NCBI GenBank assembly: GCA_000002445.1
Contig: AL929603.2
Location: 128,001 to 192,000 of the forward strand
Length of the DNA stretch: 64,000 bases
Direction of reading: 5' to 3'
From: Trypanosoma brucei
Taxonomy: Eukaryota
Part shown: piece after piece, positions 27,311 to 53,844 of the stretch
How positions within the stretch are numbered: the first letter of the stretch is position 1
How the letters are laid out: each line of letters begins with the position of its first letter
Program-made: the position numbers and the translations under genes
Notes under the pieces: generated by a model
The model's database searches: none
What the model was told of the DNA's origin: nothing
The model's input: the letters and a program-made list of their open reading frames with translations, nothing else

Positions 27311-28383
27311 TCAGATAGAGAGAAAACATTGTAAAGCATTAGTCCATATGGCATACATTTTCAATACTTCTTTTTCACCATTATTCCACTTAGCACATTC
27401 CTCAAAAGAGGCCTAATATTGAATTATTATTCCCACAAATATATTTGCTCCCTTCCGTGAGCCTTTCGTTTCGTTTGAGTTTCACCAAGGCAGAAAAGCA
27501 GACGCATGGAAAGGTGCTCCAATACCAAAACAAAAACAAATACCTTTCATTCCTTCATATATATATTTCTTAGATTCATGATCCCATGGTTGCAAGAAAA
27601 AGAAAAAAAACACAGGATCACTTTAATGAAGGATAAAGAAAGTGAGCAGCATTTGTTCGTCGGGTGAGAGAGGTTCCTCTTTGATGTATAAGATTTTATT
27701 TTCATTGGTTTTACTTTTTACGGCGATTATTATTGTATTTTTTGATATCTCGTACTCTCATTTGCACACTGTGTACTCATTCGGAGTGTGAGAGTTGGCA
27801 TTAGAAATAGTTTTTCCACATTAATAAGTAATTACAACGTGTCATTCCGAGTGACGGCTCATGTGAGATTATGCGCAAGTTCTGATAGTTGTTTGTATTG
27901 TTTCTTAATGTGAAGAACCCTCATTATGCACATGAATACCTTTAACCAAGTATTATACATTTTACATAGCTTATGAGTAAAGCTATTGTTTCCCATTTTT
28001 CATGGCAATGCCACATTTATTTATTTGTTTTTGCTTTTCAATACATATATAAATATATTATTTTTTCTGCACTGATGGTGTACAGTAACTTGGAATTGTT
28101 GTTTGAGTTTTCCTCCCAAGAGAAATGTTTATTCATACTGTCATACCTTATCTGTGCTTAAGTTGCCGTGAAGCCCCAACACATGATAAGATTTGTGTTT
28201 AATCTCAATTTTAGTAAATATTTTTCATCTGCCATATTAATTCCTAATATTCATTTTATATTTGATTTGGTTTAGAAACGTATCCATTTTAAATTCTCTC
28301 ATCTTAATTTTTTTCATTATTTATGTTACAAAGAAAGGAAATAACACAACGCACTCAATTAAGATTATTATTCGGAGAGTGAA

Positions 28384-31489: not shown

Positions 31490-32346
31490 ATTAACAGTTC
31501 TATTGAGGATGTGCTGCTGGAAGATTATGCGGGTTTGGATGAAATGAAACTGCATGAAATTTTGAATCAATACATCTCAAACACGTATAACACAGAGAAT
31601 GTGGCCATGTTTTTGTTTGTTCAGAATCCGGGAAAATATATTAATGCTAATGTTCTTGAAGAAATAGAGGATACCGACGAGTTTCAATTACCGAGAGCAG
31701 TTATTTATTTGCCTCTAATGGAATTGAAGACATGCAGCAATGGGAGGAGAGGGCAACAGCGCAAATAAGGGAATTTGTTGGTCCCGTGGCGAGGGGAATG
31801 TTGGATGGAGCATTGGATACTGCCAAAGAAGCAAGGAAACGAGCTGACCAAACAGCTGGTGGTGCCGAACTGAAAGGAGTGTATGATTCTATGTACAATG
31901 CGACATGGGGTTATGTGGAGTCGGGTCACAATGATTTACCTCTTGGCATGAAGGTGGTGGGTAATTGTGACGGCGAGCCCGAGTTGTGGACAAAAGAGGA
32001 GGTGAATGTCAGTCACACGCCTTATGACTTGTGCGACCCACTGCCTCGTCACGGTAATTTAGAGATTGCTGTGCTCACCTCGCAGAAGAGTTGGCCATAT
32101 AACTCTTTCAGCATTCCGGAACATGCAATTCAAGAGGATGCGGAGGAACCAGGAGACTACGTGTTTGACCGGGATGTGTACGTTCGTCGAGAGGTAATGA
32201 GAGTGTGGTATCTTGTGAAGCACAGGCTGGATTTGTGGCTGGAGTCAGAGCTGATCGAAAAACAGATTCCTTGCGTCCTCGTCGGCAGTGCAGGTATTGG
32301 GAAATCAGTTGGTGCTGGCTATTATATTCGACTTACGCTGGTTTAG
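31490..32346 (+). pseudogene. RHS pseudogene, 5'-truncated N-terminal part with frameshift (31511..31768 / 31732..32346), interrupted by ingi-1
   Basis: '..EIREFVGPVARGMLDGALDTAKEARKRA..LKGVYDSMYNATWGYV..' and P-loop 'VLVGSAGIGKSVGAGYYIRLTLV' immediately followed by stop and retroelement. Confidence 0.7.
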
Positions 32347-32432
32347 TGGTTATGTAGATTGGTCGTCGCAGATAGTACCGGAATCGATTCCCGCGGCCAG
32401 CGAGTATTTAGCTTACACTAAGAATGAATCTG
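32347..32432 (+). other. Unassigned ~86-bp sequence between RHS hot spot and 5'-truncated ingi-1; contains 12-nt perfect palindrome GGAATCGATTCC (32380..32391) and CCGCGG
   Basis: Matches neither RHS continuation nor canonical ingi 5' end (CACCCTGGCGATGCCGG missing). Confidence 0.4.
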
Positions 32433-32638
32433 CCTCAACGTGGTGCCAGGGTCCGGTACCCCGTATCATCGGGGGAAGCCAAGAGCCAGCAGCGTTATTC
32501 CCATAGGGAACACTGCTTTGCTCCGGCTACGGCATCATACAGCACAGGGATCAGCAGCGTCTTGCTGGGACACCGTTTTTCATTTGTCGGTCCCTGGGCA
32601 CGTGCCAGCGTGCCATCAGCAGTATCATCCGCACTAAG

Positions 32639-33571
32639 ATGCTGCTGTCCGGTGATGTGGAAGAGAATCCCGGCCCGTCGTTGCGCGGGATGCAGTGGAA
32701 CTGCGCCGGGCTATCTCAAGGAAAGAGATTAGCACTCCACAAAACCCTTGTTGATGAGCGGATCGCCTTTTGTCTGTTGAGCGAGACAAGGATGACGCCT
32801 GGAGAGGCGGCTTGCTTTAGCGTTGCTGGTTACCAACATCGCGGAATAGCTCGTAACTGCAAAGGAGGTGGTGTATCAATACTAGTGAGGGAGGACCTAC
32901 CAGTCGAGACCGGTATGGCCGTTGTTGGTCGCATTGAACAAGTGCATGCAACAATTCACCTTGCACGTGGAACGGCGCTGACTGTCACGTCGGCATACAT
33001 CCCACCAAAACACACCTTTACGGCAACTGACATAGATACGCTTCTGACAACTGACGGTGCCCAGCTCATCGGTGCAGACGCTAATGCACACGCGTTGGCA
33101 TGGGATCGCGCGAGCCCACCAAATACCAAGGGTGAAACCCTCACACAGTGGTGCATTGACAACCAGTTTCTGGTCTGCAACACTGGTGAGTGCACCAGGT
33201 ACGCGTGCCACCACGGGGAGTCCACCCCTGATGTGACACTGTCAAGGAATTGCACAGTGTACACGTGGACATCGCTGTATTCTCCCGATAGCGATCACCA
33301 TCACATATTTTTCGACGTTATCGTTGGAGACGACACAGATGCACTGAGTTGCCCGCGGCTTCGAAAGCCCATGTACGCATGGCTAAAAGCTAACTGGAGG
33401 AATTTCCGTCTCAAGGTTGACGAGCTCTGCAGGAAAATTGGTAGAGAGAAGAACGTCAACACCCTGGAACAGAAATTGAGCTCCGCCATCCGCATTGGAC
33501 ACCTGCGCTCGCGAAACTCGATGAAGAGATCGCTGGATGCGGACCCTCCCGCCGAAGGGAAAAGTTGGTAG
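32639..33571 (+). CDS. ingi ORF part 1: 2A-like peptide (DVEENPGP at 32654..32677) + AP (apurinic/apyrimidinic-like) endonuclease domain
   Basis: 'MLLSGDVEENPGPSLRGMQWNCAGLSQGKR...LLSETR...ILVRED...GADANAHALAWD...SDHHHIFF' (EEP-family endonuclease hallmarks); ends at TAG where frame shifts. Confidence 0.8.
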   Translation: MLLSGDVEENPGPSLRGMQWNCAGLSQGKRLALHKTLVDERIAFCLLSETRMTPGEAACFSVAGYQHRGIARNCKGGGVSILVREDLPVETGMAVVGRIEQVHATIHLARGTALTVTSAYIPPKHTFTATDIDTLLTTDGAQLIGADANAHALAWDRASPPNTKGETLTQWCIDNQFLVCNTGECTRYACHHGESTPDVTLSRNCTVYTWTSLYSPDSDHHHIFFDVIVGDDTDALSCPRLRKPMYAWLKANWRNFRLKVDELCRKIGREKNVNTLEQKLSSAIRIGHLRSRNSMKRSLDADPPAEGKSW

Positions 33572-36500
33572 CCACGCGTAAGCAGATCCTGGACCGTACC
33601 ACAAAGAAGAGATGGAGCACGCTATGCTCCAGACTTGCGGTGTCAGACCGCTGCAGTTGGCACATTGTCAAGAAGGTATATGCGCCACGACCACTAACCA
33701 CACCGGCTGTACTTGTAGATAACGCGGCCATCACGGACTACCGTCAAGCTGAGAGGTTCAGTAAACTGTACTCGTCCCGCGCAAGAAGGCACCCCGACTC
33801 ACACCCACCGGCACCAATAAAGACGATAGCGAGTGAGTTCAGTCCCATCACGATGGCTGAACTACGGAGATCGATCAAACTGCTACCGAGTGGATCCGCC
33901 GCCGGACCTGATTGCTTATACAACGAGGCACTACAACATCTCGGCAGAACAGCGCTGAATGTTGTTCTGTGGCTATTCAATGAGAGCCTACGAACGGGAG
34001 TCGTGCCGCCTGCATGGAAGACTGGTGTTATCATCCCCATCCTGAAGGCCGGAAAAAAGGCGGAGGACCTCGATTCTTACAGGCCAGTGACGCTCACGAG
34101 CTGTCTCTGCAAAGTCATGGAGCGCATAATTGCCGCGAGACTTAGAGACACTGTTGAGTCCCAGCTGACGCCGCAGCAATCAGGCTTTCGCCCCGGATGC
34201 TCAACGCTCGAACAACTCCTGCACGTCCGCGCTGCCCTCTGCCGTCCCACGCACCAATCTCGTACGGGTGCTGTATTCGTTGACTACGAGAAGGCATTCG
34301 ATACAGTAGACCACGACAAAATTGCGAGGGAAATGCACAGAATGAAGGTATCACCCCACATTGTGAAGTGGTGCGTATCATTTCTGAGTAACCGAACTGG
34401 CAGAGTGAGATTCAAGGAGAAGCTTTCCAGAAGCAGAACATTTGAGCGAGGAGTGCCACAAGGAACTGTCCTTGGCCCAATCATGTTCATTATTGTCATG
34501 AACTCGTTGAGCCAACGCCTTGCAGAAGTGCCGTTACTGCAGCACGGATTCTTTGCAGACGACCTAACGCTACTTGCGAGGCACACAGAAAGGGATGTCA
34601 TCAACCACACACTACAATGCGGCCTAAACGTGGTGTTACAGTGGTCAAAAGAGTACTTCATGTCTGTCAACGTAGCGAAAACAAAGTGCACACTCTTCGG
34701 GTGTATAGAGCGCCACCCCCTTACATTACAACTGGAAGGCGAAAGAATAGGAGCTGACAGGACACCGAAGCTTCTAGGAGTAACATTCCAGTGTCTGCAG
34801 GGGATGGCAACACATGCGGCCGAAACGAGACGCAAGATGGACTTCCGACTACTGCAGATAGCGGCCATCTCAGCTTCTACATGGAGGCCAAGACGACAAG
34901 TACTGAGAGCTTTTTATCTAGCACTCGTACAGGCACACACCATGTATGGCATTGAGGTATGGTACTGGGACGCTTCGGAACGAAGTCGCGACCTCCTTGC
35001 ATCAGCACAACACAAAGCCAGTCGCATCATAGCCGGCATACCGCATGGGACGCGCAAAGAGGACTCTCTGCTGGAAGCAAACCTCCTGCCACTCAAGACG
35101 ACCACTCTTGTGCGCAGCATGAAATTCATGCTGATGTGTGAGTCACGAGGCGGATGTTTGCGGCGCAGTGCTGAAGAAGTATACCACAGCAAACACCCAG
35201 TCAGAGTCTTACATTCCCGCATCATGCGGTCCTACCCCCACCTCCGCATTGAGCCACGCGAGCACCCACTAGAGACATCGACGCTCCGCCACAGCTGCCG
35301 ACCGATATTTCACACGCAGATAAAGCCTGTGTGCGCTGATGACCCTGACGATGTCAAAAGGGAGGCTTCCGAAAAGTGGATTGAACGACATTTTGCACGG
35401 AGGGGGAAGGAGCCACCGCGGCGAGAGCACTACGAATTGTGGACTGATGGATCCGTGTCCCTCGGTGAGAAGACCGGGGCAGCTGCCCTGCTCTATAGAA
35501 ACAACACGCTGATTTGCGCACCCAAAACTGGAGCAGGGGAACTCTCATGCAGTTACAGAGCGGAATGCGTAGCATTAGAGATAGGACTGCAACGGCTGCT
35601 GAAATGGCTTCCGGCATACAGAAGCACACCGAGCAGGTTGTCCATCTTCTCTGACTCGCTGTCAATGTTAACAGCACTGCAGACAGGCCCCCTAGCCGTA
35701 ACGGACCCAATTCTGAGACGACTATGGAGGCTTCTGCTTCAAGTTCAGAGAAGGAAGGTGCGTATCCGACTGCAATTTGTGTTTGGCCATTGTGGCGTGA
35801 AACGGAATGAGGTTTGCGATGAAATGGCCAAAAAGGCCGCAGATTTACCACAGTTGCGAGACACATGGATCCCCGACATCATTGCTTATGCGAAGCGAGT
35901 GCTTAGGTCGGAAGAAGTCCATGAGAACACTCATAGGTTTGGTATCACGGGCAACCACTTTCCAACAAAACATAAGGAAGAACTGACGAGGGAAGAAGAA
36001 ACGGCACTGGCACGCTTTCGGGTTGGGTCTTCAAGACACTATGGATGGATGTTGCGAAAGATCAACCCGAGTGTGCCTCCACAGTGTCGATGGTGTAACC
36101 CGCAACATGCAGCGATAGGGCCAACAATACAAACACAAAAGGCCCCAATTGTTGCGACACGCACTCTTCAGAGAACCTCCGAACCGACCAAATGTACGGA
36201 ATGTGATGCCACATACCAATGCCGCTCGAGTGCTGTAACGCATATGGTAAACAAACACGGCTTTGTGCGAGCTGATGCCCTCCGGAGGATAAAATACGGC
36301 GATGCAACACCTGCAGTGGATATCCCCCCGGAGCCCCCTCCAGTGGTGGCGATCGTTCCTCTACCATCGAGCACACGAGTCCCGATAAGACCACAGGTGC
36401 TTCATTGTACCCTCTGTGCCTCCAAATTCGCAGTGCCAGGGCGACTATTACACCACCTTAGAACAATACATGGCATAGGCAGCGGCAGTTGCCGCGTGAA

Positions 36501-37353
36501 AAGGGGGCGAGAGAACGAGGACTCAGTGCAAGGAGATGGTAAAGCCCCAGCAGCGCCAGCCTCTCAGGATACACGGAAGCTGCCGTTTCAATGTGACCTG
36601 TGCGAGGCGAGCTTCGGTACACGCTCTTCCCTGTCACTACACAAGAAATTCAAACATAAAAGCATAGTGACTGAGGACGGTGCCGTGGTGGTGGTGCAAT
36701 TCCCTCGTAAGCGTGCCCGTGAGGGAAACGTTGACGTCCCGGGGAAAGGCGAGGTGCAGTGCGGTGTGTGCCAAAAAGTGCTCAGTTGCAGGGACTCCCT
36801 CATCCGACACTGTAAGGCTTTCCACAAAGGTGAGGTAGTCGAGCTTAAATGCAGCAAAAGCACAAAATTGTGTGCCACTGATTCCCCCCATACAAACACA
36901 TCCATGTTGGTGTGCCCGACATGCGGAAGGCAGTGTGCTAGCAAAACTGGCCTCACCCTACATCAAAAGAAGATGCACGGTATGAAGGTAGAGCGCGCTG
37001 TTACCAGCCAACGCGGCGACTGCGAAGAAACGTCGCTGCACTTGATGAGCTGTCCCGGTTTGAAGAAGTTACGTGTCAGGTTTGCGGTAGAAGGTGAGTG
37101 TGTGCAGGATGTATGTTTCTCCAAAAGGCTGGCGCAGTTTCTCATTGCGGTTGAACGGAGCCGGCCGCAGGTGAAGTCCTCACCTAAGGTAACAGTCATA
37201 CAACCCACTCTTCCTTCTGCAACTTCCCCCCTTATTGCCGAGTGTGGAGCTAGCAGGAAAAGCACCGGACGCAGGAATAGTCCAGACACCCTCAGAGACA
37301 GAGGAGGTATGCTGTCAACAAGCAACAGAAACAGAAAGAGGGGGAGAGAATAA
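33565..37353 (+). CDS. ingi ORF part 2: reverse transcriptase (motifs 'YRPVTLTSCLCKVMERII', 'FVDYEKAFDTVDH', 'FADDLTLL'), RNase H-like ('ELWTDGS'), C-terminal C2H2 zinc-finger cluster; begins in -1 frame relative to part 1 (no ATG; TTG at ORF start)
   Basis: 1262-aa ORF with non-LTR RT boxes and multiple C..C...H....H fingers (e.g. 'CTECDATYQCRSSAVTHMVNKH', 'CDLCEASFGTRSSLSLHKKFKH'). Confidence 0.85.
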   Translation: MVATRKQILDRTTKKRWSTLCSRLAVSDRCSWHIVKKVYAPRPLTTPAVLVDNAAITDYRQAERFSKLYSSRARRHPDSHPPAPIKTIASEFSPITMAELRRSIKLLPSGSAAGPDCLYNEALQHLGRTALNVVLWLFNESLRTGVVPPAWKTGVIIPILKAGKKAEDLDSYRPVTLTSCLCKVMERIIAARLRDTVESQLTPQQSGFRPGCSTLEQLLHVRAALCRPTHQSRTGAVFVDYEKAFDTVDHDKIAREMHRMKVSPHIVKWCVSFLSNRTGRVRFKEKLSRSRTFERGVPQGTVLGPIMFIIVMNSLSQRLAEVPLLQHGFFADDLTLLARHTERDVINHTLQCGLNVVLQWSKEYFMSVNVAKTKCTLFGCIERHPLTLQLEGERIGADRTPKLLGVTFQCLQGMATHAAETRRKMDFRLLQIAAISASTWRPRRQVLRAFYLALVQAHTMYGIEVWYWDASERSRDLLASAQHKASRIIAGIPHGTRKEDSLLEANLLPLKTTTLVRSMKFMLMCESRGGCLRRSAEEVYHSKHPVRVLHSRIMRSYPHLRIEPREHPLETSTLRHSCRPIFHTQIKPVCADDPDDVKREASEKWIERHFARRGKEPPRREHYELWTDGSVSLGEKTGAAALLYRNNTLICAPKTGAGELSCSYRAECVALEIGLQRLLKWLPAYRSTPSRLSIFSDSLSMLTALQTGPLAVTDPILRRLWRLLLQVQRRKVRIRLQFVFGHCGVKRNEVCDEMAKKAADLPQLRDTWIPDIIAYAKRVLRSEEVHENTHRFGITGNHFPTKHKEELTREEETALARFRVGSSRHYGWMLRKINPSVPPQCRWCNPQHAAIGPTIQTQKAPIVATRTLQRTSEPTKCTECDATYQCRSSAVTHMVNKHGFVRADALRRIKYGDATPAVDIPPEPPPVVAIVPLPSSTRVPIRPQVLHCTLCASKFAVPGRLLHHLRTIHGIGSGSCRVKRGRENEDSVQGDGKAPAAPASQDTRKLPFQCDLCEASFGTRSSLSLHKKFKHKSIVTEDGAVVVVQFPRKRAREGNVDVPGKGEVQCGVCQKVLSCRDSLIRHCKAFHKGEVVELKCSKSTKLCATDSPHTNTSMLVCPTCGRQCASKTGLTLHQKKMHGMKVERAVTSQRGDCEETSLHLMSCPGLKKLRVRFAVEGECVQDVCFSKRLAQFLIAVERSRPQVKSSPKVTVIQPTLPSATSPLIAECGASRKSTGRRNSPDTLRDRGGMLSTSNRNRKRGRE

Positions 37354-37625
37354 TAAACGAATAACAAAAATCAAAACAAAAGGATTGCTAATTGACATCT
37401 TTGGGAGAGTCCAGGGTGGGAGGCTTCTCGCCCCATCTGCTGTATTCCGTTCATATGCGGAAATACAACAAAAATTATAGAGGGTGTGTTAGGATGAATG
37501 AAAAAGGGAGACTCTGCCACAGTCGCCAGACCGATAGCATCTCAGGGCTCTACGGTGATGGCTGATGGCCGCGCCAGTGAGGGGAAACTCCCACGAAGGC
37601 ACGAAGAAAATTCTAAAAAAAAAAA

Positions 37626-38492
37626 TTCTCCTTCACAAACTAAAGCATGATGCCAGAGTATTGCCTGTTACCGCATATTTTATAGGAGTTCATGCATGCA
37701 TATATATATATATATATATGTCTGTGTTGTATCTTGGAACGTTGCGCCCATATGGCAAATGGATTGGAAGACTGCTGCTGCATAAATTCATCAACCTTGG
37801 TCGCATCTATCGTACAGGAGATTCCGAAACGTATGTGTGCACGCTGCACTTTGAATCCGCATTGAGGGTGGTAACTTTCCAGTCGCGCAGAGACGTTGCA
37901 CGACAACATTGTGTGAGGAGAGTCACTCATATACAGATCAGTTTTGTCTTGTGTTTTGAAGGTGATGCCGCAAGTGCTTTCGATTTTCCCAGGGTATTAT
38001 TTCCTTTTATTGACATGATAGGGTCATTGCCCGCAACCGCGGAGTGGAAACAGGAAACGATGCAGGATGTCAGCGTGTTGAACCGCCTGAGCGATATTTT
38101 CCTGAACTTCGGTAAAGCACAGCGCCTTCCAAATATCCATGAGGGAACAATCAACTCTCCACACACCATGCAACTTTACGGGTTCCCACCCATTTTCCCA
38201 CTATTTGATACCTTGTTTGTTGTGGATTGCGACACAACCACCGAAGTTGAAAATCAACGAAAAATAAACGGTGGTGATGTTGCAATTCCAAACTGCTGGA
38301 TCACATGATAACAAAACAGGAACAGCCCTTAATATGCTCGAGAATCCTGTCCTTCTAACATGTGATGCGAATAGGGATATGTTTTTGAGAAATTTTATGA
38401 ATGAATTTGGGTGGGGAGTTATTTGTGCTCAGCATGTTGCCGTCAGAAAGATGAGACGCCAACAATTGTGCAACGATACAGCGGGCAAATGA
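37626..38492 (+). pseudogene. RHS pseudogene, portion 3' of hot spot downstream of ingi-1 (stop at 38306, frame change 38271..38492)
   Basis: 'ILLHKLKHDARVLPVTAYFIGVHACIYIYIYMS...NCWIT*' aligns to intact RHS 28384 'FILYKLLHYDAEELPVVAYFRGVAAYIFEKS...VVNCWAMSEMRAF'; contains (TA)10 at ~37700..37720. Confidence 0.7.
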
Positions 38493-39274
38493 AGTGAGGA
38501 AGATCGCAAATATGTTCATTTATTTTGGGCCAACAGTATGAAACATTACCTTGTGCAATTTAATGTTAATACCGTCGCTATGTTAGCTATTGAAAATATT
38601 GCGGGGAGGGGAAGTAACCGACATGGATGTAAATCATGAAAGAGCGGCTGTGGGAAATCAATAAAAGAGAGGAAGGAGAAGAGTAAACGGGGAAAACATC
38701 AACAAAAGAGTGTGGAAACAAATAATCACGGCAGGTGATGTCACGGTATAACTCTGTGTTAGGAGGGTTGTGGACTCTATCAAAATTAACCTCTCGGCAG
38801 TAAGCACAGTTAACAACGAGCGTATGATCCCTTTTTAAAATTTGGTTACTTTAATTCGTTTTTTTTATTACTTAACGATGTTAACATTAGATACGATATG
38901 CATTTTTTGTAGAAGCACATATGTGTTAATGAAAACATTGCAACATTGTTTACATCAGATATTAATACTTAGCTGCCTAACCGTAATTTCCTACAGAGCG
39001 TGTCGTTTACGGTTTTCATTTCTACCAGATGGATGTCACATATTGTGTTTAATATTTTACACTGAGTGATGTGCCCGAAATATTTTTTTTTCTTAATCGT
39101 CGACGCCCCTTTCACCTTTTCATGTATTCTCCTAATTTTTCTCTACCATTTGTTACATAAGGTGCGCACAGATACGATTGTATGAAGGTTTCTGTGCAAG
39201 AAGCCGAGGTGTCCAGTTCACTATTTATTTGATGGAAAGTCATTATTTTGAGTGTGCGATTCGTTGTACATTCA

Positions 39275-39787
39275 CTTTTTTTTTTTTTAAAAGTTGTCTT
39301 CGTGCCTTCGTGGGAGTTTCCCCTCACTGGCGCGGCCATCAGCCATCACCGTAGAGCCCTGAGATGCTATCGGTCTGGCGACTGTGGCAGAGTCTCCCTT
39401 TTTCATTCATCCTAACACACCCTCTATAATTTTTGTTGTATTTCCGCATATGAACGGAATACAGCAGATGGGGCGAGAAGCCTCCCACCCTGGACTCTCC
39501 CAAAGATGCCAATTGGCAATCCTTTTTTTTTCGGAGGTCCACATCACCGGACAGCAGCATCTTAGTGCGGATGATATACTGCTGATGGCACGCTGGCACG
39601 TGCCCAGTGACAGAAAAATGAAAAACGGTGTCCCAGCAAGACGCTGCTGATCCCTGTGCTGTATGATGCCGTAGCCGGAGCACAGCAGTGTTCCCCATGA
39701 AAGGAACGCTGCTGGCTCTTGGCTTCCCCCGATGATACGGGGTACTGGACCCTGGCACCACGTTGAGGTGGCCGGCATCGCCAGGGT
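39275..39787 (-). mobile_element. RIME (minus strand) inserted into RHS 3' pseudogene segment; lies directly 3' of ingi-2 separated by 10 bp TATAACAAAA
   Basis: rc 5' end CACCCTGGCGATGCCGGCCACC at 39766..39787; T14 (poly(A) on minus) at 39275..39288; the 3' segment preceding poly(A) ('GGCACGAAGACAACTTTT') is a variant of the canonical 'GGCACGAAGAAAATTC'; the RIME interrupts the RHS 3' pseudogene segment at ~39273 (copy at 1..1369 continues 'ccactggctaccggc'). Confidence 0.85.
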
Positions 39788-39797
39788 GTATAACAAA

Positions 39798-42700
39798 ATT
39801 TTTTTTTTTTTTTTAGAATTTTCTTCGTGCCTTCGTGAGAGTTTCTCCCAACTGGCGCGGCCATCAGCCATCACCGTAGAGCCCTGAGATGCTATCGGTC
39901 TGGCGACTGTGGCAGAGTCTCCCTTTTTCATTCATCCTAACACACACACTCTCTATAATTTTTGTTGTAGCTCCGCAGTTGAACGGAATACAGCAGATGG
40001 GGCGAGAAGCCCCCCTCACCCCGGACTCTCCCAAAGATGTCAATTAGCAATCCTTTTGTTTTGATTTTTGTTATTCGTTTATTATTCTCTTCTCCTCTTT
40101 CTGTTTCTGTTGCTTGTTGATTGCATACCCCCTCTGTCTCTAAGGGTGTCTGGACTATTCCTGCGTCCGATGCTTTTCCTGCTAGCTCCACATTCGGCAA
40201 TAAGGGGGGAAGTTGCAGAAGGGAGAGTGGGTTGTATGACTGTTACCTTAGGTGAGGACTTCACCTGCGGCCGGCTCCGTTCAACCGCAATGAGAAACTG
40301 CGCCAGCCTTTTGGAGAAACATACATCCTGCACACACTCACCTTCTACCGCAAACCTGACACGTAACTCCTTCAAACCGGGACAGCTCATCAAGTGCAGC
40401 GACGTTTCTTCGCAGTCGCCGCGTTGGCTGGTAACAGCGCGCTCTACCTTCATACCGTGCATCTTCTTTTGATGTAGGGTGAGGCCAGTTTTGCTAGCAC
40501 ACTGCCTTCCGCATGTCGGGCACACCAACATGGATGTGTTTGTATGCGGGGAATCAGTGGCACACAATTTTGTGCTTTTGCTGCATTTAAGCTCGACTAC
40601 CTCACCTTTGTGGAAAGCCTTACAGTGTCGGATGAGGGAGTCCCTGCAACTGAGCACTTTTTGGCACACACCGCACTGCACCTCGCCCTTCCCCGGGACG
40701 TCAACGTTTCCCTCACGGGCACGCTTACGAGGGAATTGCACCAACACCACGGTACCGTCCTCCGTCACTATGCTTTTATGTTTGAATTTCTTGTGTAGTG
40801 TCAGGGAAGAACGTGTACCGAAGCTCGCCTCGCACAGGTCACATTGAAACGGCAGCTTCCGTGTATCCTGAGAGGCTGGCGCTGCTGGGGCTTTACCATC
40901 TCCTTGCACTGAGTCCTCGTTCTCTCGCCCCCTTTTCACGCGGCAACTGCCGCTGCCTATGCCATGTATTGTTCTAAGGTGGTGTAGTAGTCTGCCTGGC
41001 ACTGCGAATTTGGAGGCACAGATGGTACAATGAAGCACCTGCGGTCTCATCGGGACTCGTGTGCTCGATGGTAGGGGAACGATCGCCACCACTGGAGGGG
41101 GCTCCGGGGGGATATCCACTGCAGGTGTTGCATCGCCGTATTTGATCCTCCGGAGGGCATCAGCTCGCACAAAGCCATGTTTGTTTACCATATGCGTTGC
41201 AGCACTCGAGCGGCATTGGTATGTGGCATCACATTCCGTACATTTGGTCGGTTCGGAGGTTCTTTGAAGAGTGCGTGTCGCAACAGTTGGGGCCGTTTGT
41301 ATTGTTGGCCCTATCTCTGCATGTTGCGGGTTGCACCATCGGCACTGTGGAGGCACACTCGGGTTGATCTTTCGCAACATCCATCCATAGTGCCTTGAAG
41401 ACCCAACCCGAAAGCGTGCCAGTGCCGTTTCTTCTTCCCTCGTCAGTTCTTCCTTATGTTTTGTTGGAAAGTGGTTGCCCGTGATACCAAACCTATGAGT
41501 GTTCTCATGGACTTCTTCCGACCTAAGCACTCGCTTCGCATAAGCAATGATGTCGGGGATCCATGTGTCTCGCAACTGTGGTAAATCTGCGGCCTTTTTG
41601 GCCATGTCATCGCAAACCTCATTCCGTTTCACGCCACAATGGCCAAACACAAATTGCAGTCGGATACGTATCTTCCTTCTCTGAACTTGAAGCAGAAGCC
41701 TCCATAGTCGTCTTAGAATTGGGTCCGTTACGGCTAGGGGGCCTGTCTGCAGTGCTGTTAACATTGACAGCGAGTCAGAGAAGATGGATAACCTGCTCGG
41801 TGTGGTTCTGTATGCCGGAAGCCATTTCAGCAGCCGTTGCAGTCCTATCTCTAATGCTACGCATTCCGCTCTGTAACTGCATGAGAGTTCCCCTGCTCCT
41901 GTCTTAGGTGCGCAAATCAGCGTGTTGTTTCTGTAGAGCAGGGCAGCTGCTCCGGACTTCTCACCGAGGGACACGGATCCATCAGTCCACAATTCGTAGT
42001 GCTCTCGCCGCGGTGGCTCCTTCCCCCTCCGTGCAAAATGCCGTTCAATCCACTTTTCGGAAGCCTCCCTTTTGACATCGTCAGGGTCATCAGCGCACAC
42101 AGGCTTTATCTGCGTGTGAAATATCGGTCGGCAGCTGTGGCGGAGCGTCGATGTCTCTAGTGGGTGCTCGCGTGGCTCAATGCGGAGGTGGGGGTAGGAC
42201 CGCATGATACGGGAATGTAGGGCTCTGACTGGGTGTTTGCTGTGGTATACTTCTTCAGCACTGCGCCGCAAACATCCGCCTCGTGACTCACACATCAGCA
42301 TGAATTTCATGCTGCGCACAAGAGTGGTCGTCTTGAGTGGCAGGAGGTTTGCTTCCAGCAGAGAGTCCTCTTTGCGCGTCCCATGCGGTATGCCGGCTAT
42401 GATGCGACTGGCTTTGTGTTGTGCTGATGCAAGGAGGTCGCGACTTCGTTCCGAAGCGTCCCAGTACCATACCTCAATGCCATACATGGTGTGTGCCTGT
42501 ACGAGTGCTAGATAAAAAGCTCTCAGTACTTGTCGTCTTGGCCCCCATGTAGAAGCTGAGATGGCTGCTATCTGCAGTAGTCGGAAGTCCATCTTGCGTC
42601 TCGTTTCGGCCGCATGTGTTGCCATCCCCTGCAGACACTGGAATGTTACTCCTAGAAGCTTCGGTGTCCTGTCAGCTCCTATTCTTTCACCGTCCAGTTG

Positions 42701-45016
42701 TAATGTAAGGGGGTGGCGCTCTATACACCCGAAGAGTGTGCACTTTGTTTTCGCTACGTTGACAGACATGAAGTACTCTTTTGACCACTGTAACACCACG
42801 TTTAGACCGCACTGTAGTGCGTGGTTGATGACATCCCTCTCTGTGTGCCTCGCAAGTAGCGTTAGGTCGTCTGCAAAGAATCCGTGCTGCAGTAACGGCA
42901 CCTCTGCAAGGCGTTGGCTCAACGAGTTCATGACAATAATGAACATGATTGGGCCAAGGACAGTTCCTTGTGGCACTCCTCGCTCAAATGTTCTGCTTCT
43001 GGAAAGCTTCTCCTTGAATCTCACTCTGCCAGTTCGGTTACTCAGAAATGATACGCACCACTTCACAATGTGGGGTGATACCTTCATTCTGTGCATTTCC
43101 CTCGCAATTTTGTCGTGGTCTACTGTATCAAATGCCTTCTCGTAGTCAACGAATACAGCACCCGTACGATATTGGTGCGTGGGACGGCAGAGGGCAGCGC
43201 GGACGTGCAGGAGTTGTTCGAGCGTTGAGCATCCGGGGCGAAAGCCTGATTGCTGCGGCGTCAGCTGGGACTCAACAGTGTCTCTAAGTCTCGCGGCAAT
43301 TATGCGCTCCATGACTTTGCAGAGACAGCTCGTGAGCGTCACAGGCCTGTAAGAATCGAGGTCCTCCGCCTTTTTTCCGGCCTTCAGGATGGGGATGATA
43401 ACACCAGTCTTCCATGCAGGCGGCACGACTCCCGTTCGTAGGCTCTCATTGAATAGCCTCAGAACAACATTCAGCGCTGTTCTACAGAGATGTTGCAGTG
43501 CCTCGTTGTATAAGCAATCAGGTCCGGCTGCGGATCCACTCGGTAGCAGTTTGATCGATCTCCGTAGTTCAGCCATCGTGATGGGACTGAACTCACTCGC
43601 TATCGTCTTTATTGGTGCCGGTGGGTGTGAGTCGGGGTGCCTTCTTGCGCGGGACGAGTACAGTTTACTGAACCTCTCAGCTTGACAGTAGTCCGTGATG
43701 GCCGCGTTATCAACAAGTACAGCCGGTGTGGTTAGTGGTCGTGGCGCATATACCTTCTTGACAATGTGCCAACTGCAGCGGTCTGACACCGCAAGTCTGG
43801 AGCATAGCGTGCTCCATCTCTTCTTTGTGGTACGGTCCAGGATCTGCTTACGCGTGGCTACCAACTTTTCCCTTCGGCGGGAGGGTCCGCATCCAGCGAT
43901 CTCTTCATCGAGTTTCGCGAGCGCAGGTGTCCAATGCGGATGGCGGAGCTCAATTTCTGTTCCAGGGTGTTGACGTTCTTCTCTCTACCAATTTTCCTGC
44001 AGAGCTCGTCAACCTTGAGACGGAAATTCCTCCAGTTAGCTTTTAGCCATGCGTACATGGGCTTTCGAAGCCGCGGGCAACTCAGTGCATCTGTGTCGTC
44101 TCCAACGATAACGTCGAAAAATATGTGATGGTGATCGCTATCGGGAGAATACAGCGATGTCCACGTGTACACTGTGCAATTCCTTGACAGTGTCACATCA
44201 GGGGTGGACTCCCCGTGGTGGCACGCGTACCTGGTGCACTCACCAGTGTTGCAGACCAGAAACTGGTTGTCAATGCACCACTGTGTGAGGGTTTCACCCT
44301 TGGTATTTGGTGGGCTCGCGCGATCCCATGCCAACGCGTGTGCGTTAGCGTCTGCACCGATGAGCTGGGCACCGTCAGTCGTCAGAAGCGTATCTAGGTC
44401 AGTTGCCGTGAAGGTGTGTTTTGGTGGGATGTATGCCGACGTGACAGTCAGCGCCGTTCCACGTGCAAGGTGAATTGTTGCATGCACTTGTTCAATGCGA
44501 CCAATAACGGCCATACCGGTCTCGACTGGTAGGTCCTCCCTCACTAGTATTGATACACCACCTCCTTTGCAGTTACGAGCTATTCCGTGATGTTGGTAGC
44601 CAGCAACGCTAAAGCAAGCCGCCTCTCCAGGCGTCATCCTTGTCTCGCTCAACAGACAAAAGGCGATCCGCTCATCAACAAGGGTTTTGTGGAGTGCTAA
44701 TCTCTTTCCTTGAGATAGCCCGGCGCAGTTCCACTGCATCCCGCGCAACGACGGGCCGGGATTCTCTTCCACATCACCGGACAGCAGCATCTTAGTGCGG
44801 ATGATACTGCTGATGGCACGCTGGCACGTGCCCAGGGACCGACAAATGAAAAACGGTGTCCCAGCAAGACGCTGCTGATCCCTGTGCTGTATGATGCCGT
44901 AGCCGGAGCACAGCAGTGTTCCCCATGAAAGGAACGCTGCTGGCTCTTGGCTTCCCCCGATGATACGGGGTACTGGACCCTGGCACCACGTTGAGGTGGC
45001 CGGCATCGCCAGGGTG
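39798..45016 (-). mobile_element. ingi non-LTR retrotransposon (ingi-2, full length ~5.22 kb, same frameshift as ingi-1), inserted at RHS hot spot
   Basis: rc 5' end CACCCTGGCGATGCCGGCCACC at 44995..45016; poly(A) as T17 at 39798..39814; ~98-99% aa identity to ingi-1. Confidence 0.9.
40082..43864 (-). CDS. ingi-2 ORF part 2 (RT / RNase H-like / C2H2 zinc fingers), 1260 aa
   Basis: Near-identical to 33565..37353 protein. Confidence 0.85.
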   Translation of the reverse strand: MVATRKQILDRTTKKRWSTLCSRLAVSDRCSWHIVKKVYAPRPLTTPAVLVDNAAITDYCQAERFSKLYSSRARRHPDSHPPAPIKTIASEFSPITMAELRRSIKLLPSGSAAGPDCLYNEALQHLCRTALNVVLRLFNESLRTGVVPPAWKTGVIIPILKAGKKAEDLDSYRPVTLTSCLCKVMERIIAARLRDTVESQLTPQQSGFRPGCSTLEQLLHVRAALCRPTHQYRTGAVFVDYEKAFDTVDHDKIAREMHRMKVSPHIVKWCVSFLSNRTGRVRFKEKLSRSRTFERGVPQGTVLGPIMFIIVMNSLSQRLAEVPLLQHGFFADDLTLLARHTERDVINHALQCGLNVVLQWSKEYFMSVNVAKTKCTLFGCIERHPLTLQLDGERIGADRTPKLLGVTFQCLQGMATHAAETRRKMDFRLLQIAAISASTWGPRRQVLRAFYLALVQAHTMYGIEVWYWDASERSRDLLASAQHKASRIIAGIPHGTRKEDSLLEANLLPLKTTTLVRSMKFMLMCESRGGCLRRSAEEVYHSKHPVRALHSRIMRSYPHLRIEPREHPLETSTLRHSCRPIFHTQIKPVCADDPDDVKREASEKWIERHFARRGKEPPRREHYELWTDGSVSLGEKSGAAALLYRNNTLICAPKTGAGELSCSYRAECVALEIGLQRLLKWLPAYRTTPSRLSIFSDSLSMLTALQTGPLAVTDPILRRLWRLLLQVQRRKIRIRLQFVFGHCGVKRNEVCDDMAKKAADLPQLRDTWIPDIIAYAKRVLRSEEVHENTHRFGITGNHFPTKHKEELTREEETALARFRVGSSRHYGWMLRKINPSVPPQCRWCNPQHAEIGPTIQTAPTVATRTLQRTSEPTKCTECDATYQCRSSAATHMVNKHGFVRADALRRIKYGDATPAVDIPPEPPPVVAIVPLPSSTRVPMRPQVLHCTICASKFAVPGRLLHHLRTIHGIGSGSCRVKRGRENEDSVQGDGKAPAAPASQDTRKLPFQCDLCEASFGTRSSLTLHKKFKHKSIVTEDGTVVLVQFPRKRAREGNVDVPGKGEVQCGVCQKVLSCRDSLIRHCKAFHKGEVVELKCSKSTKLCATDSPHTNTSMLVCPTCGRQCASKTGLTLHQKKMHGMKVERAVTSQRGDCEETSLHLMSCPGLKELRVRFAVEGECVQDVCFSKRLAQFLIAVERSRPQVKSSPKVTVIQPTLPSATSPLIAECGASRKSIGRRNSPDTLRDRGGMQSTSNRNRKRRRE

Positions 45017-46089
45017 TATAACAAAAAGGATCCCACGGAAAACGATTTACCAATACCAGGTGTACCAACAAGAACATTGGATGCCCGGTCGATATTCAGC
45101 TTGCCCATAAGCCACTGGTTAAGCCGTTCCTCAACCTTATGCCACACCCTCAGTGCTTCCCTACGGATATAAACGTCATCGTTAAAAACGTGATCCACTC
45201 CCTTCTTGTGATTAATATCATAATCCACTATGTCCGACAGGAAAAACGTGCACGGCCAACCCATTTGAGATGTAAGCACAGCAATCTCCAAGTTACCGTG
45301 ACGGGGAAGTGGTTCCTTCATAGTTTCCGGAGTGTGACTGACATCAACCTCCTCCTTCGTCCACATGTGCGGTGGCCTTCCATCGAACACTTTCATGCCA
45401 AGTCGCTCTGTATTATAACCCGACATCACATAACTCCATTTTGCATTATATATGGAATCATAAACATCTGGGAGTTCGGCACCACCGGCTGTTTGGGCAG
45501 CTCTCTCCCATACTTCCTTGGCGACCTCCAGTGCTCCATCCAACCTTCCCCTCGCCACGGGACCAACAAATTCCCTTATTTCCACTGTCCCCCTCCTTTC
45601 CCACTGCCGGAGATAGTAAATTTCCTTTTCGTCAAGGTAGTCTACCTTCTCAGACAGATCAATAGCTGTCTTCACTGTTTTAAACTCATTAGTGCCTTGT
45701 ATATCCTCAAGAATCTCGGCATCAACAATATATCTTCTGGGATTCTTAACAAAAATAGGCATCCTAACATTTTCTGCCTCAGCCACCGCAAAAGTCCCGC
45801 CAACGAACTCCTGAATAAAGTCGTTCACTGTCATTTTACGCAAACCCTCATACCGTTGCAGCAGCGCATCTTCCAGCAGCACATCCCTCACCTTACTATT
45901 CATTGTCCAATTGGGCCCCCCTTCATTTCCCTGGCGGATTTGTGGAGGCTGAGCAGCAGCAGCAGGAGGAGGAGGAGGCGGCGGTACATTTTCATCCCGT
46001 GGCCTCCTCATGGGCCCTTCAAAATTATCTGCCACTTGTTGATTTTCATTATTTCCTTGTGGAGCTGCGGGACTATTTGCTCTTGACAT
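43858..46089 (-). CDS. In-frame fusion ORF (743 aa): RHS N-terminal region incl. P-loop (46089..~45020) :: ingi-2 5' leader + 2A peptide (44752..44775) + AP endonuclease (to 43858)
   Basis: 'MSRANSPAAPQGNN...NVLVGTPGIGKSFSVGSFLLYTL|AMPATSTWCQGPVPRIIGG...MLLSGDVEENPGPSLRGMQWNCAG...'; ATG at 46089; junction at canonical hot spot. Confidence 0.8.
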   Translation of the reverse strand: MSRANSPAAPQGNNENQQVADNFEGPMRRPRDENVPPPPPPPAAAAQPPQIRQGNEGGPNWTMNSKVRDVLLEDALLQRYEGLRKMTVNDFIQEFVGGTFAVAEAENVRMPIFVKNPRRYIVDAEILEDIQGTNEFKTVKTAIDLSEKVDYLDEKEIYYLRQWERRGTVEIREFVGPVARGRLDGALEVAKEVWERAAQTAGGAELPDVYDSIYNAKWSYVMSGYNTERLGMKVFDGRPPHMWTKEEVDVSHTPETMKEPLPRHGNLEIAVLTSQMGWPCTFFLSDIVDYDINHKKGVDHVFNDDVYIRREALRVWHKVEERLNQWLMGKLNIDRASNVLVGTPGIGKSFSVGSFLLYTLAMPATSTWCQGPVPRIIGGSQEPAAFLSWGTLLCSGYGIIQHRDQQRLAGTPFFICRSLGTCQRAISSIIRTKMLLSGDVEENPGPSLRGMQWNCAGLSQGKRLALHKTLVDERIAFCLLSETRMTPGEAACFSVAGYQHHGIARNCKGGGVSILVREDLPVETGMAVIGRIEQVHATIHLARGTALTVTSAYIPPKHTFTATDLDTLLTTDGAQLIGADANAHALAWDRASPPNTKGETLTQWCIDNQFLVCNTGECTRYACHHGESTPDVTLSRNCTVYTWTSLYSPDSDHHHIFFDVIVGDDTDALSCPRLRKPMYAWLKANWRNFRLKVDELCRKIGREKNVNTLEQKLSSAIRIGHLRSRNSMKRSLDADPPAEGKSW

Positions 46090-53763: not shown

Positions 53764-53844
53764 CATCGCTTAGCTCTATTATTAAAAAAGAAAAAGCATT
53801 TCCTCAACACTCAGCACCTCAAGGAATCGGAAACGGGAACTACA

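What the first reader, a model, noticed from the sequence alone, without database searches (positions are those of the whole stretch)
32433..45016. Inverted ingi pair sharing the same frameshift; its symmetry axis (~38725) is offset from the outer repeat axis (~35121)
ingi-1 (+, 32433..37625) and ingi-2 (-, 39798..45016) face each other tail-to-tail across 2.2 kb. That 2.2 kb consists of an RHS 3' pseudogene segment and a RIME. Both elements break the long ORF at the identical place, ...GAA GGG AAA AGT TGG TAG. These sites are 33557..33571 and the reverse complement of 43858..43872. After the break, each continues in the -1 frame for about 1260 aa.

The two copies are about 98-99% identical but not identical. 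Examples are R/C, G/C and W/R substitutions and a 2-aa indel near 'AAIGPTIQTQKAPIV'. The RHS sequences 5' of the two elements are different RHS subfamily members, at roughly 60% aa identity. The inverted symmetry is therefore confined to the elements themselves.

There are two explanations:
- An already-frameshifted ingi was copied and inverted by recombination or gene conversion.
- The frameshift is a feature of the source element.

The offset between the axes of the nested inverted repeats means at least two independent inversion or duplication events.
Basis: partly seen in the sequence, partly recalled or inferred. Interest (0 to 1): 0.5.

Follow-up and report, generated by a model that had tools for sequence, protein, structure and literature searches.

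The report
Two facing ingi retrotransposons sharing one deletion
Two copies of the known Trypanosoma brucei retrotransposon ingi sit tail-to-tail in two convergent RHS genes and share a 49-bp deletion, probably copied from one to the other by gene conversion; this is ordinary for this well-studied repeat cluster.

Summary
The window is T. b. brucei TREU927 chromosome 1, in the published RHS/ingi/RIME/LRRP cluster (it contains RHS5a).

The two ingi elements are real:
- ingi-1: 32433..37625 (+)
- ingi-2: 39799..45014 (-)
- 98.0% identical, each with one ORF break ending at the same TAG

GGGAAAAGTTGGTAG is normal ingi sequence, present in all 8 outside copies that cover the site. The real lesion is a 49-bp deletion about 72 nt upstream, at CATTG 33493-33497 (ingi-1) and 43936-43932 (ingi-2). 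It lies between imperfect direct repeats in the endonuclease-RT linker. Ten other copies and two outgroup species read through this point in a single frame. One degenerate T. b. gambiense copy at an unrelated locus has the same deletion.

The pair is not a copied-and-inverted unit:
- The flanks differ.
- ingi-2 has its own 12-bp target-site duplication.
- ingi-1 has mismatched flanks.
- The 93 substitutions between them are synonymous-biased and often polymorphic across the family.

The deletion lies in a 631-nt tract of perfect identity (P about 1e-4 to 6e-4). That points to short-tract gene conversion between neighbours.

Verdict: known elements and known processes. Low interest.

The parts
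31732..32343 (+). RHS N-terminal pseudogene fragment upstream of ingi-1 (RHS_N domain and P-loop GSAGIGKS). It is followed by 89 nt of unassigned sequence (32344..32432).
   Evidence: Pfam RHS_N E=4e-61; tblastn to RHS5a residues 11-194; translation.
32433..37625 (+). ingi-1. It lacks the first 18 nt (CCCTGGCGATGCCGGCCA). Its poly(A) ends at 37625. The 5' flank (...AATGAATCTG) and 3' flank (TTCTCCTTCACA) do not match, so the element is recombinant.
   Evidence: Pfam RVT_1, RNase_H and zf-C2H2 on ORF2.
33493..33497 (+). Junction (CATTG microhomology) of the 49-bp deletion in ingi-1. This is the true frameshifting lesion. It removes the codons for ...ATKVSVPRGCRATPP... in the linker between the endonuclease (APE) and reverse transcriptase (RT) domains.
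   Evidence: Alignments to 8 full-type copies; read-through translations.
33557..33571 (+). GGGAAAAGTTGGTAG. This is normal ingi sequence. The TAG at 33569-33571 is only where the shifted upstream frame happens to terminate.
   Evidence: Identical string in all 8 other copies covering the site; frames.
33086..33716 (+). 631-nt tract with no difference between ingi-1 and ingi-2 (partner 43713..44343). It spans the deletion and is inferred to be a gene-conversion patch.
   Evidence: About 8.6 differences were expected; P(0) = 1.2e-4; scan P = 2e-4 to 6e-4.
33445..37353 (+). Downstream open frame of ingi-1 (1302 codons: RT, RNase H, C2H2 zinc fingers), intact to its normal stop.
37626..39275 (+). 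RHS 3' fragment. It starts with TTCTCCTTCACA (37626-37637), which is the TSD of the RIME at 6471..6971 and also the 5' flank of ingi-3. It is 98.9-99.5% identical to 4815..6470 (reverse complement) and to 1..1379.
39276..39786 (-). RIME, directly downstream of ingi-2 on the minus strand. Its 3' flank is GTGAATGTACAA, which has no matching TSD, so this is a rearrangement breakpoint.
39799..45014 (-). ingi-2, full length (5216 nt with poly(A)). It is flanked by a perfect 12-bp TSD, TTTTGTTATACA (39787-39798 and 45015-45026). The deletion junction is at 43936-43932, the frame-terminating TAG at 43860-43858, and the downstream frame runs 43984..40082.
45015..46089 (-). RHS N-terminal part, fused in frame to the ingi-2 upstream frame (743-aa ORF 46089..43858). 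The insertion lies about 10 codons after the P-loop GIGKS, at the canonical RHS hot spot.
   Evidence: Pfam RHS_N, RHSP and Exo_endo_phos on a single ORF.
63224..64000 (+). ingi-3, first 777 nt only. It sits at the same RHS site and 5' flank (TTCTCCTTCACA) as the RIME at 6471..6971 in the other arm of the outer repeat. It is a mosaic: ingi-2-like up to position 587 and ingi-1-like at positions 600, 617 and 653. The deletion site lies beyond the window.
6724..22711 (.). Left arm of the outer inverted repeat. The right arm is 47517..63473. Overall identity is 95.7%, ranging from 89.5% to 98.5% per kb. Each arm carries an LRRP gene.

Best explanation
These are two separate ingi (Tbingi) non-LTR retrotransposon copies. 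Each lies in sense orientation inside one of two convergent RHS (pseudo)genes of the T. b. brucei TREU927 chromosome 1 RHS cluster. That placement alone produces the tail-to-tail symmetry confined to the elements.

Their shared frameshift is a 49-bp deletion between imperfect 19-20-nt direct repeats (exact core CATTG) in the conserved linker between the endonuclease and reverse-transcriptase domains. The quoted TAG is only the first stop met in the shifted frame.

The deletion is shared because a short tract was copied between the neighbouring inverted elements by gene conversion. The tract is at least 49 bp and lies within 33086..33716. The donor was probably ingi-2 or an ingi-2-like copy, and the recipient ingi-1. 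The rest of the two elements keeps independent, family-polymorphic, selection-filtered differences. Ectopic recombination between ingi, RIME and RHS copies has also reshuffled the flanks.

Shown: the anatomy, the lesion, its ancestral state, its minority frequency, and the identity tract.
Inferred: gene conversion as the cause, and its direction.
For: - Lesion identity. 8 other copies carry 49 extra nt at this point, and one of them (L001b) reads through in a single frame there. Proteins P0024, P0025, P0026, P0027, P0030 and P0035, and T. grayi P0012, read ...AIRIATKVSVPRGCRATPPHWTPELAKLDEE.... T. theileri P0004 ends within the same segment (...AIRIATAAAVPRGG). The full form is therefore ancestral.
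- Literature. A functional ingi is 5.25 kb with one 4,971-bp ORF encoding 1,657 aa (PMC3447711, PMC2323293).
- Separate insertions. ingi-2 has a perfect TSD. ingi-1 has mismatched flanks and an 18-nt 5' truncation. The upstream RHS parts are 57% identical.
- Divergence is not in-situ decay. The ratio is 27 nonsynonymous to 49 synonymous, against about 71% nonsynonymous expected (p = 1.4e-10). Against the private changes of other copies (179:94) Fisher p = 3e-6. About 45% of differing sites are polymorphic in other copies.
- Conversion. A 631-nt tract with zero differences spans the deletion, where about 8.6 differences were expected (P = 1.2e-4; scan P = 2e-4 to 6e-4).
- Local exchange. ingi-3 is a mosaic of ingi-2-like and ingi-1-like segments.
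- Literature. ingi and RIME are reported to recombine and cause rearrangements (PMC2854126). RHS pseudogenes are reported to arise by insertion at the hot spot and by recombination (PMC7563717).
Against: - ingi-1 and ingi-2 share about 7 substitutions found in no other sampled copy. These are spread over the whole length (776, 1170, 4115, 4173, 4401, 4475, 5158). They therefore belong to one sub-lineage, which could already have carried the deletion.
- A third deleted copy exists at an unrelated locus in T. b. gambiense (L003), so the allele is not private to this pair.
- The survey is small: 13 junctions, none from other TREU927 loci.
- The identity tract could partly reflect lower local variability, although weighting by family diversity still gives P = 2e-4.
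- The direction of conversion rests only on the density of derived sites.
Confidence: 0.55

Rival explanations
1. Deleted source lineage. A sub-lineage of ingi already carrying the 49-bp deletion was mobilised repeatedly, in trans by intact ingi proteins as RIME is. ingi-1, ingi-2 and the T. b. gambiense copy are independent insertions that were already defective when they inserted.
For: - The same deletion occurs at an unrelated T. b. gambiense locus.
- ingi-2 has a perfect 12-bp TSD, so it arrived by retrotransposition.
- 7 exclusive shared substitutions run along the whole element.
- Both copies have no other ORF-breaking lesion.
- RIME shows that trans-mobilisation exists in this family (PMC2323293).
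Against: - The synonymous-biased, family-polymorphic differences between the two copies would need purifying selection on a lineage that cannot make the fused protein.
- The 631-nt zero-difference tract centred on the deletion is unexpected if the whole elements share one age.
- L003 does not share the flanking alleles 776T and 962A, and it has 5 differences within 50 bp upstream of the junction.
- 10 of 11 outside copies are full type.
Confidence: 0.25
2. Whole-element duplication and inversion. One frameshifted ingi was duplicated in inverted orientation by recombination, and the two copies then diverged in place by 2%.
For: - High overall identity: 98.0%, against 95-97% to copies elsewhere.
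- The same lesion and the exclusive shared substitutions.
- The region is full of inverted duplications.
Against: - Homology stops exactly at the element ends.
- The flanking RHS parts are 57% identical and the TSDs differ.
- Divergence is not neutral (27 nonsynonymous to 49 synonymous, p = 1.4e-10), and nearly half of it is at sites polymorphic elsewhere in the family, including the 6-nt indel.
- Differences are distributed unevenly.
Confidence: 0.08
3. Recurrent deletion. The same 49-bp deletion arose independently in each copy by slippage or RT template switching between the imperfect direct repeats GAGCTCCGCCATCCGCATTG and GAGCAACGCCACCACATTG.
For: - The direct-repeat structure is present in every full-type copy.
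- The T. b. gambiense copy carries the deletion on a clearly different background.
Against: - Two independent identical events in neighbouring elements are unlikely when 10 of 11 outside copies are undeleted.
- Recurrence does not explain the 631-nt identity tract.
Confidence: 0.07
4. Functional two-ORF or programmed-frameshift variant. The break is bypassed (-1 frameshifting at GGGAAAAG, or separate translation of the endonuclease and RT), and the deleted form is an active element.
For: - There is a signature of purifying selection between the two deleted copies.
- Each has only one ORF break.
- The needed shift is -1, and an A-run precedes the stop.
Against: - In the upstream frame the codons are GGG AAA AGT. 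The heptamer G GGA AAA is therefore not in the X XXY YYZ register (read directly from the sequence).
- The same string occurs in all full-type copies, where no shift is needed.
- The deleted 16 codons are conserved in T. grayi and T. theileri.
- The first Met in the downstream frame is about 130 codons in.
- The selection signature is explained equally well by variation inherited or converted from intact copies.
Confidence: 0.03

Closest known systems
Tbingi (ingi), the autonomous non-LTR retrotransposon of T. brucei in the ingi/L1Tc clade
   Same: - The 5' end CCCTGGCG... is shared with RIME, and RIME halves sit at both ends.
- The domain order is endonuclease, RT, RNase H, C2H2 zinc finger.
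- There is a poly(A) tail and a 12-bp TSD.
- With the 49 bp restored the length is about 5.26 kb.
- Identity to ingi copies of T. b. gambiense and T. b. equiperdum is 95-97%.
   Different: Both copies lack 49 bp of the endonuclease-RT linker. They therefore have two overlapping frames instead of the single 1,657-aa ORF of potentially functional copies. ingi-1 also lacks the first 18 nt.
RHS pseudogenes with ingi or RIME at the retrotransposon hot spot (Bringaud et al. 2002; summarised in PMC7563717)
   Same: ingi-2, ingi-3 and the RIME at 6471..6971 lie about 10 codons after the P-loop GIGKS. They are in sense orientation, and ingi-2 is in frame with the RHS N-terminus. There is a tandem ingi-RIME at one site. 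Flanks are mismatched, as expected from recombination. The window contains RHS5a itself.
   Different: Nothing essential. The ingi-1 5' junction is 89 nt past the canonical site.
Early multi-ORF descriptions of L1Tc and ingi/TRS1 copies (own knowledge: Martin et al. 1995; Murphy et al. 1987; Kimmel et al. 1987; papers not held here)
   Same: Copies with a frameshift read as an endonuclease ORF followed by an RT ORF in another frame.
   Different: I could not check whether the historical reference sequences carry this particular 49-bp deletion.
Concerted evolution and short-tract gene conversion among dispersed LINE copies and inverted repeats
   Same: There is a patch of perfect identity inside otherwise diverged paralogues, and neighbouring copies are mosaics.
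   Different: Here the patch carries an inactivating deletion. No experimental evidence was obtained.
Large inverted repeats and ingi/RHS as siRNA sources in T. brucei (PMC3447711)
   Same: A 5.2-kb inverted pair 2.2 kb apart could give fold-back dsRNA if it is transcribed through. ingi/RHS account for about 52% of AGO1-bound small RNAs.
   Different: This pair is 98% identical, not the 99-100% or more of the seven repeats catalogued there. No expression data were examined.

Membership tests
ingi (Tbingi) non-LTR retrotransposon | Conserved 5' signature (first ~79 nt, CCCTGGCG...) shared with RIME | tested here: met
   ingi-2, ingi-3 and both RIMEs share the 5' end from CCCTGGCGATGCCGGCCACC.... 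ingi-1 lacks the first 18 nt.
ingi (Tbingi) non-LTR retrotransposon | First and last ~250 nt correspond to the two halves of RIME | tested here: met
   32433-32661 matches 39768-39538 and 37373-37625 matches 39531-39278, at 95-98%.
ingi (Tbingi) non-LTR retrotransposon | Encodes endonuclease, reverse transcriptase, RNase H and zinc-finger domains | tested here: met
   Pfam Exo_endo_phos / Exo_endo_phos_2, RVT_1, RNase_H and zf-C2H2.
ingi (Tbingi) non-LTR retrotransposon | Poly(A) tail and 12-bp target-site duplication | tested here: met
   ingi-2 has TTTTGTTATACA on both sides. ingi-1 has poly(A) but mismatched flanks.
Potentially functional ingi | Single uninterrupted ORF of 4,971 bp / 1,657 aa (PMC3447711) | tested here: not met
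   The 49-bp deletion splits the ORF in both copies.
RHS hot-spot insertion | Retroelement inserted just downstream of the P-loop codons of an RHS gene, in sense orientation | tested here: met
   ingi-2, ingi-3 and the RIME at 6471..6971 follow ...GIGKS + 10 codons. ingi-1 is 89 nt further on.
Inverted segmental duplication (palindromic copy of one locus) | Homology extends into the flanking sequence on both sides of the repeated unit | tested here: not met
   Homology ends at the element ends. The flanks are 57% identical at the amino-acid level and have different TSDs.
Programmed -1 ribosomal frameshift site | Slippery heptamer X XXY YYZ in register with the upstream frame, and dependence of the downstream ORF on the shift in all functional copies | tested here: not met
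   The upstream-frame codons are GGG AAA AGT, which is the wrong register. Full-type copies read the same string without any shift. Downstream RNA structure was not examined.
Gene-conversion tract | Segment of significantly elevated identity bounded by normally diverged sequence | tested here: met
   631 nt with no differences against about 8.6 expected; scan P = 2e-4 to 6e-4.
Gene-conversion tract | Donor-recipient relation shown by comparison with an orthologous unconverted locus | not testable with these tools
   No other T. brucei strain's chromosome 1 locus could be fetched.

The most novel reading that the evidence does not exclude
The 49-bp-deleted ingi is a transposition-competent two-ORF sub-lineage. 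The endonuclease and the RT-RNase H-zinc-finger protein are made separately, or by an unconventional -1 shift or reinitiation. The lineage is kept under purifying selection (27 nonsynonymous to 49 synonymous between two deleted copies, each with no other lesion, one with a perfect TSD). It has inserted at least at chromosome 1 of T. b. brucei and chromosome 7 of T. b. gambiense.
Probability: 0.04. Interest if true: 0.5.

Novelty: already known. Interest (0 to 1): 0.12.

Why it matters
It matters little beyond annotation.

- The usual way of locating a frameshift, by the stop codon, misplaced the lesion by about 72 nt and mistook a family-wide sequence for a diagnostic one.
- It gives a concrete case of an inactivating deletion spreading between neighbouring retrotransposon copies by short-tract conversion inside the T. 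brucei RHS cluster. This fits the known recombination-prone behaviour of ingi, RIME and RHS.
- Apart from this one deletion, the two copies are among the most intact ingi sampled. That is relevant to anyone counting potentially active elements in TREU927.

Tried and rejected
- Exact-product look-ups of the window's ingi ORF1 (310 aa) and of the LRRP ORF found nothing on record. The source was instead identified by homology and cluster look-up.
- A junction-spanning protein search returned only short annotated fragments. No model carried the deleted-type C-terminus.
- Exact DNA scans of metagenome and prokaryotic genome collections for the deleted junction and for the GGGAAAAG... string found nothing, as expected.
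- Rfam found no family at gathering threshold anywhere in the window.
- The key papers (Kimmel 1987, Bringaud 2002 and 2009, Hall 2003) are not held. I could not check whether the historical ingi reference sequences carry the deletion.
- A majority consensus of outside copies was itself frame-broken. Synonymous and nonsynonymous counts were therefore redone on the window's own frames.
- Programmed frameshifting was considered and rejected on register and on the full-type copies.
- Assembly artefact was considered unlikely: the region is Sanger BAC-based chromosome 1, the two copies differ at 105 columns, and the same deletion occurs in an independent genome.

Full report
SOURCE AND SETTING

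The window is T. brucei brucei TREU927 chromosome 1. Three ORFs match deposited proteins exactly:
- The 1448-aa ORF at 12214..16560 (-) is identical to LRRP CAB95333.1 / XP_846402.1, on a 1,064,672-bp record.
- The ORF at 53680..58029 is CAB95344.1.
- The ORF at 28384..30411 is RHS5a (CAB95337.1 / AAL14356.1).

From my own knowledge, this is the chromosome Ia RHS cluster analysed by Bringaud et al. 2002 and Hall et al. 2003. Those papers are not held here.

Self-comparison shows a patchwork of repeats:
- An outer inverted repeat, 6724..22711 against 63473..47517. It is 95.7% identical overall and 89.5-98.5% per kb. Each arm carries an LRRP gene.
- A near-perfect palindrome at 1..6193.
- Three ingi, two RIME and several RHS fragments.

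CHECKING THE OBSERVATION

The two elements:
- ingi-1 (32433..37625, +) and ingi-2 (core 39804..44996, -) align end to end at 98.0%, with 92-93 substitutions and four indel events.
- With the 18-nt 5' end CCCTGGCGATGCCGGCCA and the full poly(A), ingi-2 is 39799..45014.

The spacer:
- An RHS 3' fragment, 37626..39275. tblastn matches it to RHS5a residues 372-675.
- A minus-strand RIME, 39276..39786.

The reading frames:
- Both elements terminate the upstream frame at the same TAG (33569-33571 and 43860-43858).
- Both continue in the -1 frame for 1302 and 1300 open codons.

The RHS N-termini upstream of the two elements are 57% identical.

WHERE THE LESION REALLY IS

Both frames are open over 33445..33568, so the stop codon does not locate the mutation.

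I fetched ten loci around annotated ingi-derived gene models in T. b. equiperdum and T. b. gambiense.
- All eight copies that cover the site have the string GAAGGGAAAAGTTGGTAG unchanged.
- All eight carry 49 additional nucleotides about 72 nt upstream: CGACGAAGGTCTCCGTCCCCCGTGGCTGCAGAGCAACGCCACC(A/T)CATTG.
- With these 49 nt present, copy L001b reads straight through as ...LSSDICIATKVSVPRGCRATPPYWTPELAKLDEEIAGYGPSHRREKLVATRKQ....
- Annotated proteins P0024, P0025, P0026, P0027, P0030 and P0035 read through in the same way.

The segment is ancestral:
- T. grayi has ...GIRLATKAAVPEGNRRQSPFWTPELADLDKAI....
- T. theileri has ...AIRIATAAAVPRGG.

This agrees with the literature. A potentially functional ingi is 5.25 kb with one 4,971-bp ORF encoding 1,657 aa (PMC3447711, PMC2323293).

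The lesion in both window copies is thus a 49-bp deletion, and 49 is 1 modulo 3.
- It lies between imperfect direct repeats, GAGCTCCGCCATCCGCATTG and GAGCAACGCCACCACATTG.
- The junction is inside CATTG, at 33493-33497 in ingi-1 and 43936-43932 in ingi-2.
- GGGAAAAGTTGGTAG is normal sequence read in the wrong frame.

Programmed -1 frameshifting is not supported. The upstream-frame codons GGG AAA AGT put the heptamer out of register, and full-type copies need no shift.

HOW COMMON IS THE DELETION

Thirteen junctions were examined.
- Deleted: ingi-1, ingi-2 and L003.
- L003 is from T. b. gambiense DAL972 (FN554970.1, about 1.81 Mb, next to VSG genes). It is a degenerate copy with a further internal deletion 19 nt after the junction.
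- Full: L001a, L001b, L002, L004, L006, L007, L008 and L009 at the DNA level, plus P0027 and P0035 at the protein level.
- P0030 appears orthologous to L002.

L003 does not share the window copies' nearby alleles 776T and 962A. It differs from ingi-2 at five sites within 50 bp upstream of the junction. Its deletion is either old or independent.

No other TREU927 copy could be fetched with the tools available, and ingi-3 ends in the window before the site.

ARE THE TWO ELEMENTS A COPIED-AND-INVERTED UNIT?

The flanks say no.
- ingi-2 is bounded by a perfect 12-bp TSD (TTTTGTTATACA). It sits at the canonical RHS hot spot, about 10 codons after GIGKS, in frame with the RHS N-terminus. The 743-aa ORF carries RHS_N, RHSP and Exo_endo_phos.
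- ingi-1 lacks its first 18 nt and joins the RHS 89 nt beyond the hot spot.
- The 3' flank of ingi-1 is TTCTCCTTCACA plus an RHS 3' part. That 12-mer is the TSD of the RIME at 6471..6971 and the 5' flank of ingi-3.
- ingi-1 is therefore a recombinant with flanks from different insertion sites.

The tail-to-tail symmetry follows from sense-oriented insertion into two convergent RHS genes.

The divergence also argues against in-place decay of a duplicate.
- In the coding frames the two copies differ by 27 nonsynonymous and 49 synonymous changes. About 71% nonsynonymous are expected under neutrality (binomial p = 1.4e-10).
- Private changes of the other copies are 179:94 (Fisher p = 3e-6).
- About 45% of the differing sites, including the 6-nt indel, are polymorphic among other copies.
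- Each window copy has only this one ORF break. The outside copies have two to five. A caveat is that the T. b. equiperdum assembly may add indel errors.

The two copies do share about seven substitutions seen in no other sampled copy. They belong to one sub-lineage.

WHY THE SAME DELETION

The 105 differing columns are spread unevenly. A 631-nt stretch, 33086..33716 in ingi-1 and 43713..44343 in ingi-2, has none, and the deletion lies inside it.
- Scaling by the diversity of five other full-length copies, 8.6 differences were expected there, giving P(0) = 1.2e-4.
- The chance of any such gap in the element is 2e-4 when weighted by family diversity and 6e-4 under a uniform model.
- No pair among the other copies has an identical run longer than 308 nt.

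ingi-3 is itself a mosaic. It is ingi-2-like up to position 587 and ingi-1-like at positions 600, 617 and 653. The neighbours therefore exchange sequence.

The best reading is short-tract gene conversion that copied the deletion between the two inverted neighbours.
- The tract and the 5' 1.3 kb of ingi-2 are close to the family consensus (5 derived sites in 1284 nt).
- The 5' 653 nt of ingi-1 carry 13 derived sites.
- An ingi-2-like donor is therefore more likely. This is an inference.
- The deletion could have arisen by replication slippage or by RT template switching between the direct repeats. This is also an inference.

Published work already reports that ingi and RIME recombine and cause rearrangements (PMC2854126). 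It also reports that RHS pseudogenes arise by hot-spot insertion and recombination (PMC7563717).

RIVALS
- A deleted source lineage mobilised in trans remains possible (0.25). It is favoured by the T. b. gambiense copy, the ingi-2 TSD and the exclusive shared substitutions. The identity tract and the selection-like divergence disfavour it.
- Whole-element inverted duplication: 0.08.
- Independent recurrence: 0.07.
- A functional two-ORF or frameshifting variant: 0.03.

THE AXIS OFFSET

The offset is real: about 38715 against about 35100-35115.
- It says only that the ingi pair is not part of the outer inverted duplication.
- Multiple events are evident from the range of identities: 89.5-98.5% per kb in the outer arms, 98.0% for the ingi pair, 98.9-99.5% for the RHS 3' copies, and 100% in the arms of the left palindrome.
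- The breakpoints at element ends point the same way.

VERDICT

The elements, their insertion site and their recombination-prone behaviour are all known. The locus is a published, annotated one.

The useful corrections are three:
- The true nature and position of the lesion.
- The quoted motif is family-wide.
- There is evidence for a conversion patch.

Interest is low.

Noticed in passing
window 1..6193: A near-perfect palindrome, centred at about 3097. Its arms are 98.3% identical overall and include 100%-identical stretches of 1647 and 742 nt. It is built from RHS 3' parts with two truncated RHS N-terminal fragments (ORFs 2514..3119 + and 3700..3092 -) converging on the centre. It runs to the window edge. 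It could be a genuine recent palindrome or an assembly artefact.
   Followed up: partly
window 6471..6971 (-) and 63224..64000 (+): The two arms of the outer inverted repeat hold different elements at the same RHS site with the same 12-bp flank, TTCTCCTTCACA. One arm has a 0.5-kb RIME with a perfect TSD. The other has a full-length ingi. This implies replacement of one by the other after the duplication, or independent use of the same site. The outer repeat probably continues beyond the right end of the window.
   Followed up: partly
window 43858..46089 (-): A 743-aa ORF fuses an RHS N-terminus (DUF7578, RHS_N, start of the P-loop domain) in frame with the ingi-2 endonuclease part. The fusion includes the 2A-like peptide DVEENPGP just after the junction. 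This is the known in-frame hot-spot insertion.
   Followed up: partly
window 32344..32432: 89 nt lie between the RHS P-loop region and the truncated 5' end of ingi-1. They match nothing else in the window, and their origin is unassigned. The first 86 nt of ingi-1 also carry a cluster of 7 changes (6 private) relative to all other copies.
   Followed up: no
window 39264..39276: The 3' end of the RIME abuts the end of an RHS 3' fragment in the opposite orientation. Copies of that fragment at 1..1379 and 4815..6470 continue past this point (...TTGTACATCCAC|TGGCTACC...). No matching TSD exists in the window, so this is a rearrangement breakpoint exactly at a retroelement end.
   Followed up: partly
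window 7719..9687 vs 61500..60500 region, and the whole outer repeat: Identity between the outer repeat arms varies from 89.5% to 98.5% per kb. This suggests patchy conversion or different ages along the arms. The two LRRP genes differ in length by one codon (1448 and 1449 aa).
   Followed up: partly
protein P0032 (XP_018644078.1, Schistosoma mansoni Smp_186480, on a 13-kb contig): A 'LOW QUALITY PROTEIN' of S. mansoni is 91% identical to the T. brucei ingi endonuclease region. It clusters at 90% or more with T. b. equiperdum ingi fragments. The most likely explanation is trypanosome DNA contamination in that scaffold.
   Followed up: partly
L001 9261..13697 and 19087..20906 (T. b. equiperdum CM010677.1): Two ingi-related copies lie about 10 kb apart in direct orientation. 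They share the same 5' truncation point (around ingi position 728-838) and a RIME-like fragment between them. This looks like a tandemly duplicated unit.
   Followed up: no
window 27208..27317: A short AT-rich tandem array: 19-nt unit TTTCCTTATATTTCATATA, about 6 copies, 69% matches. It lies between RHS genes.
   Followed up: no
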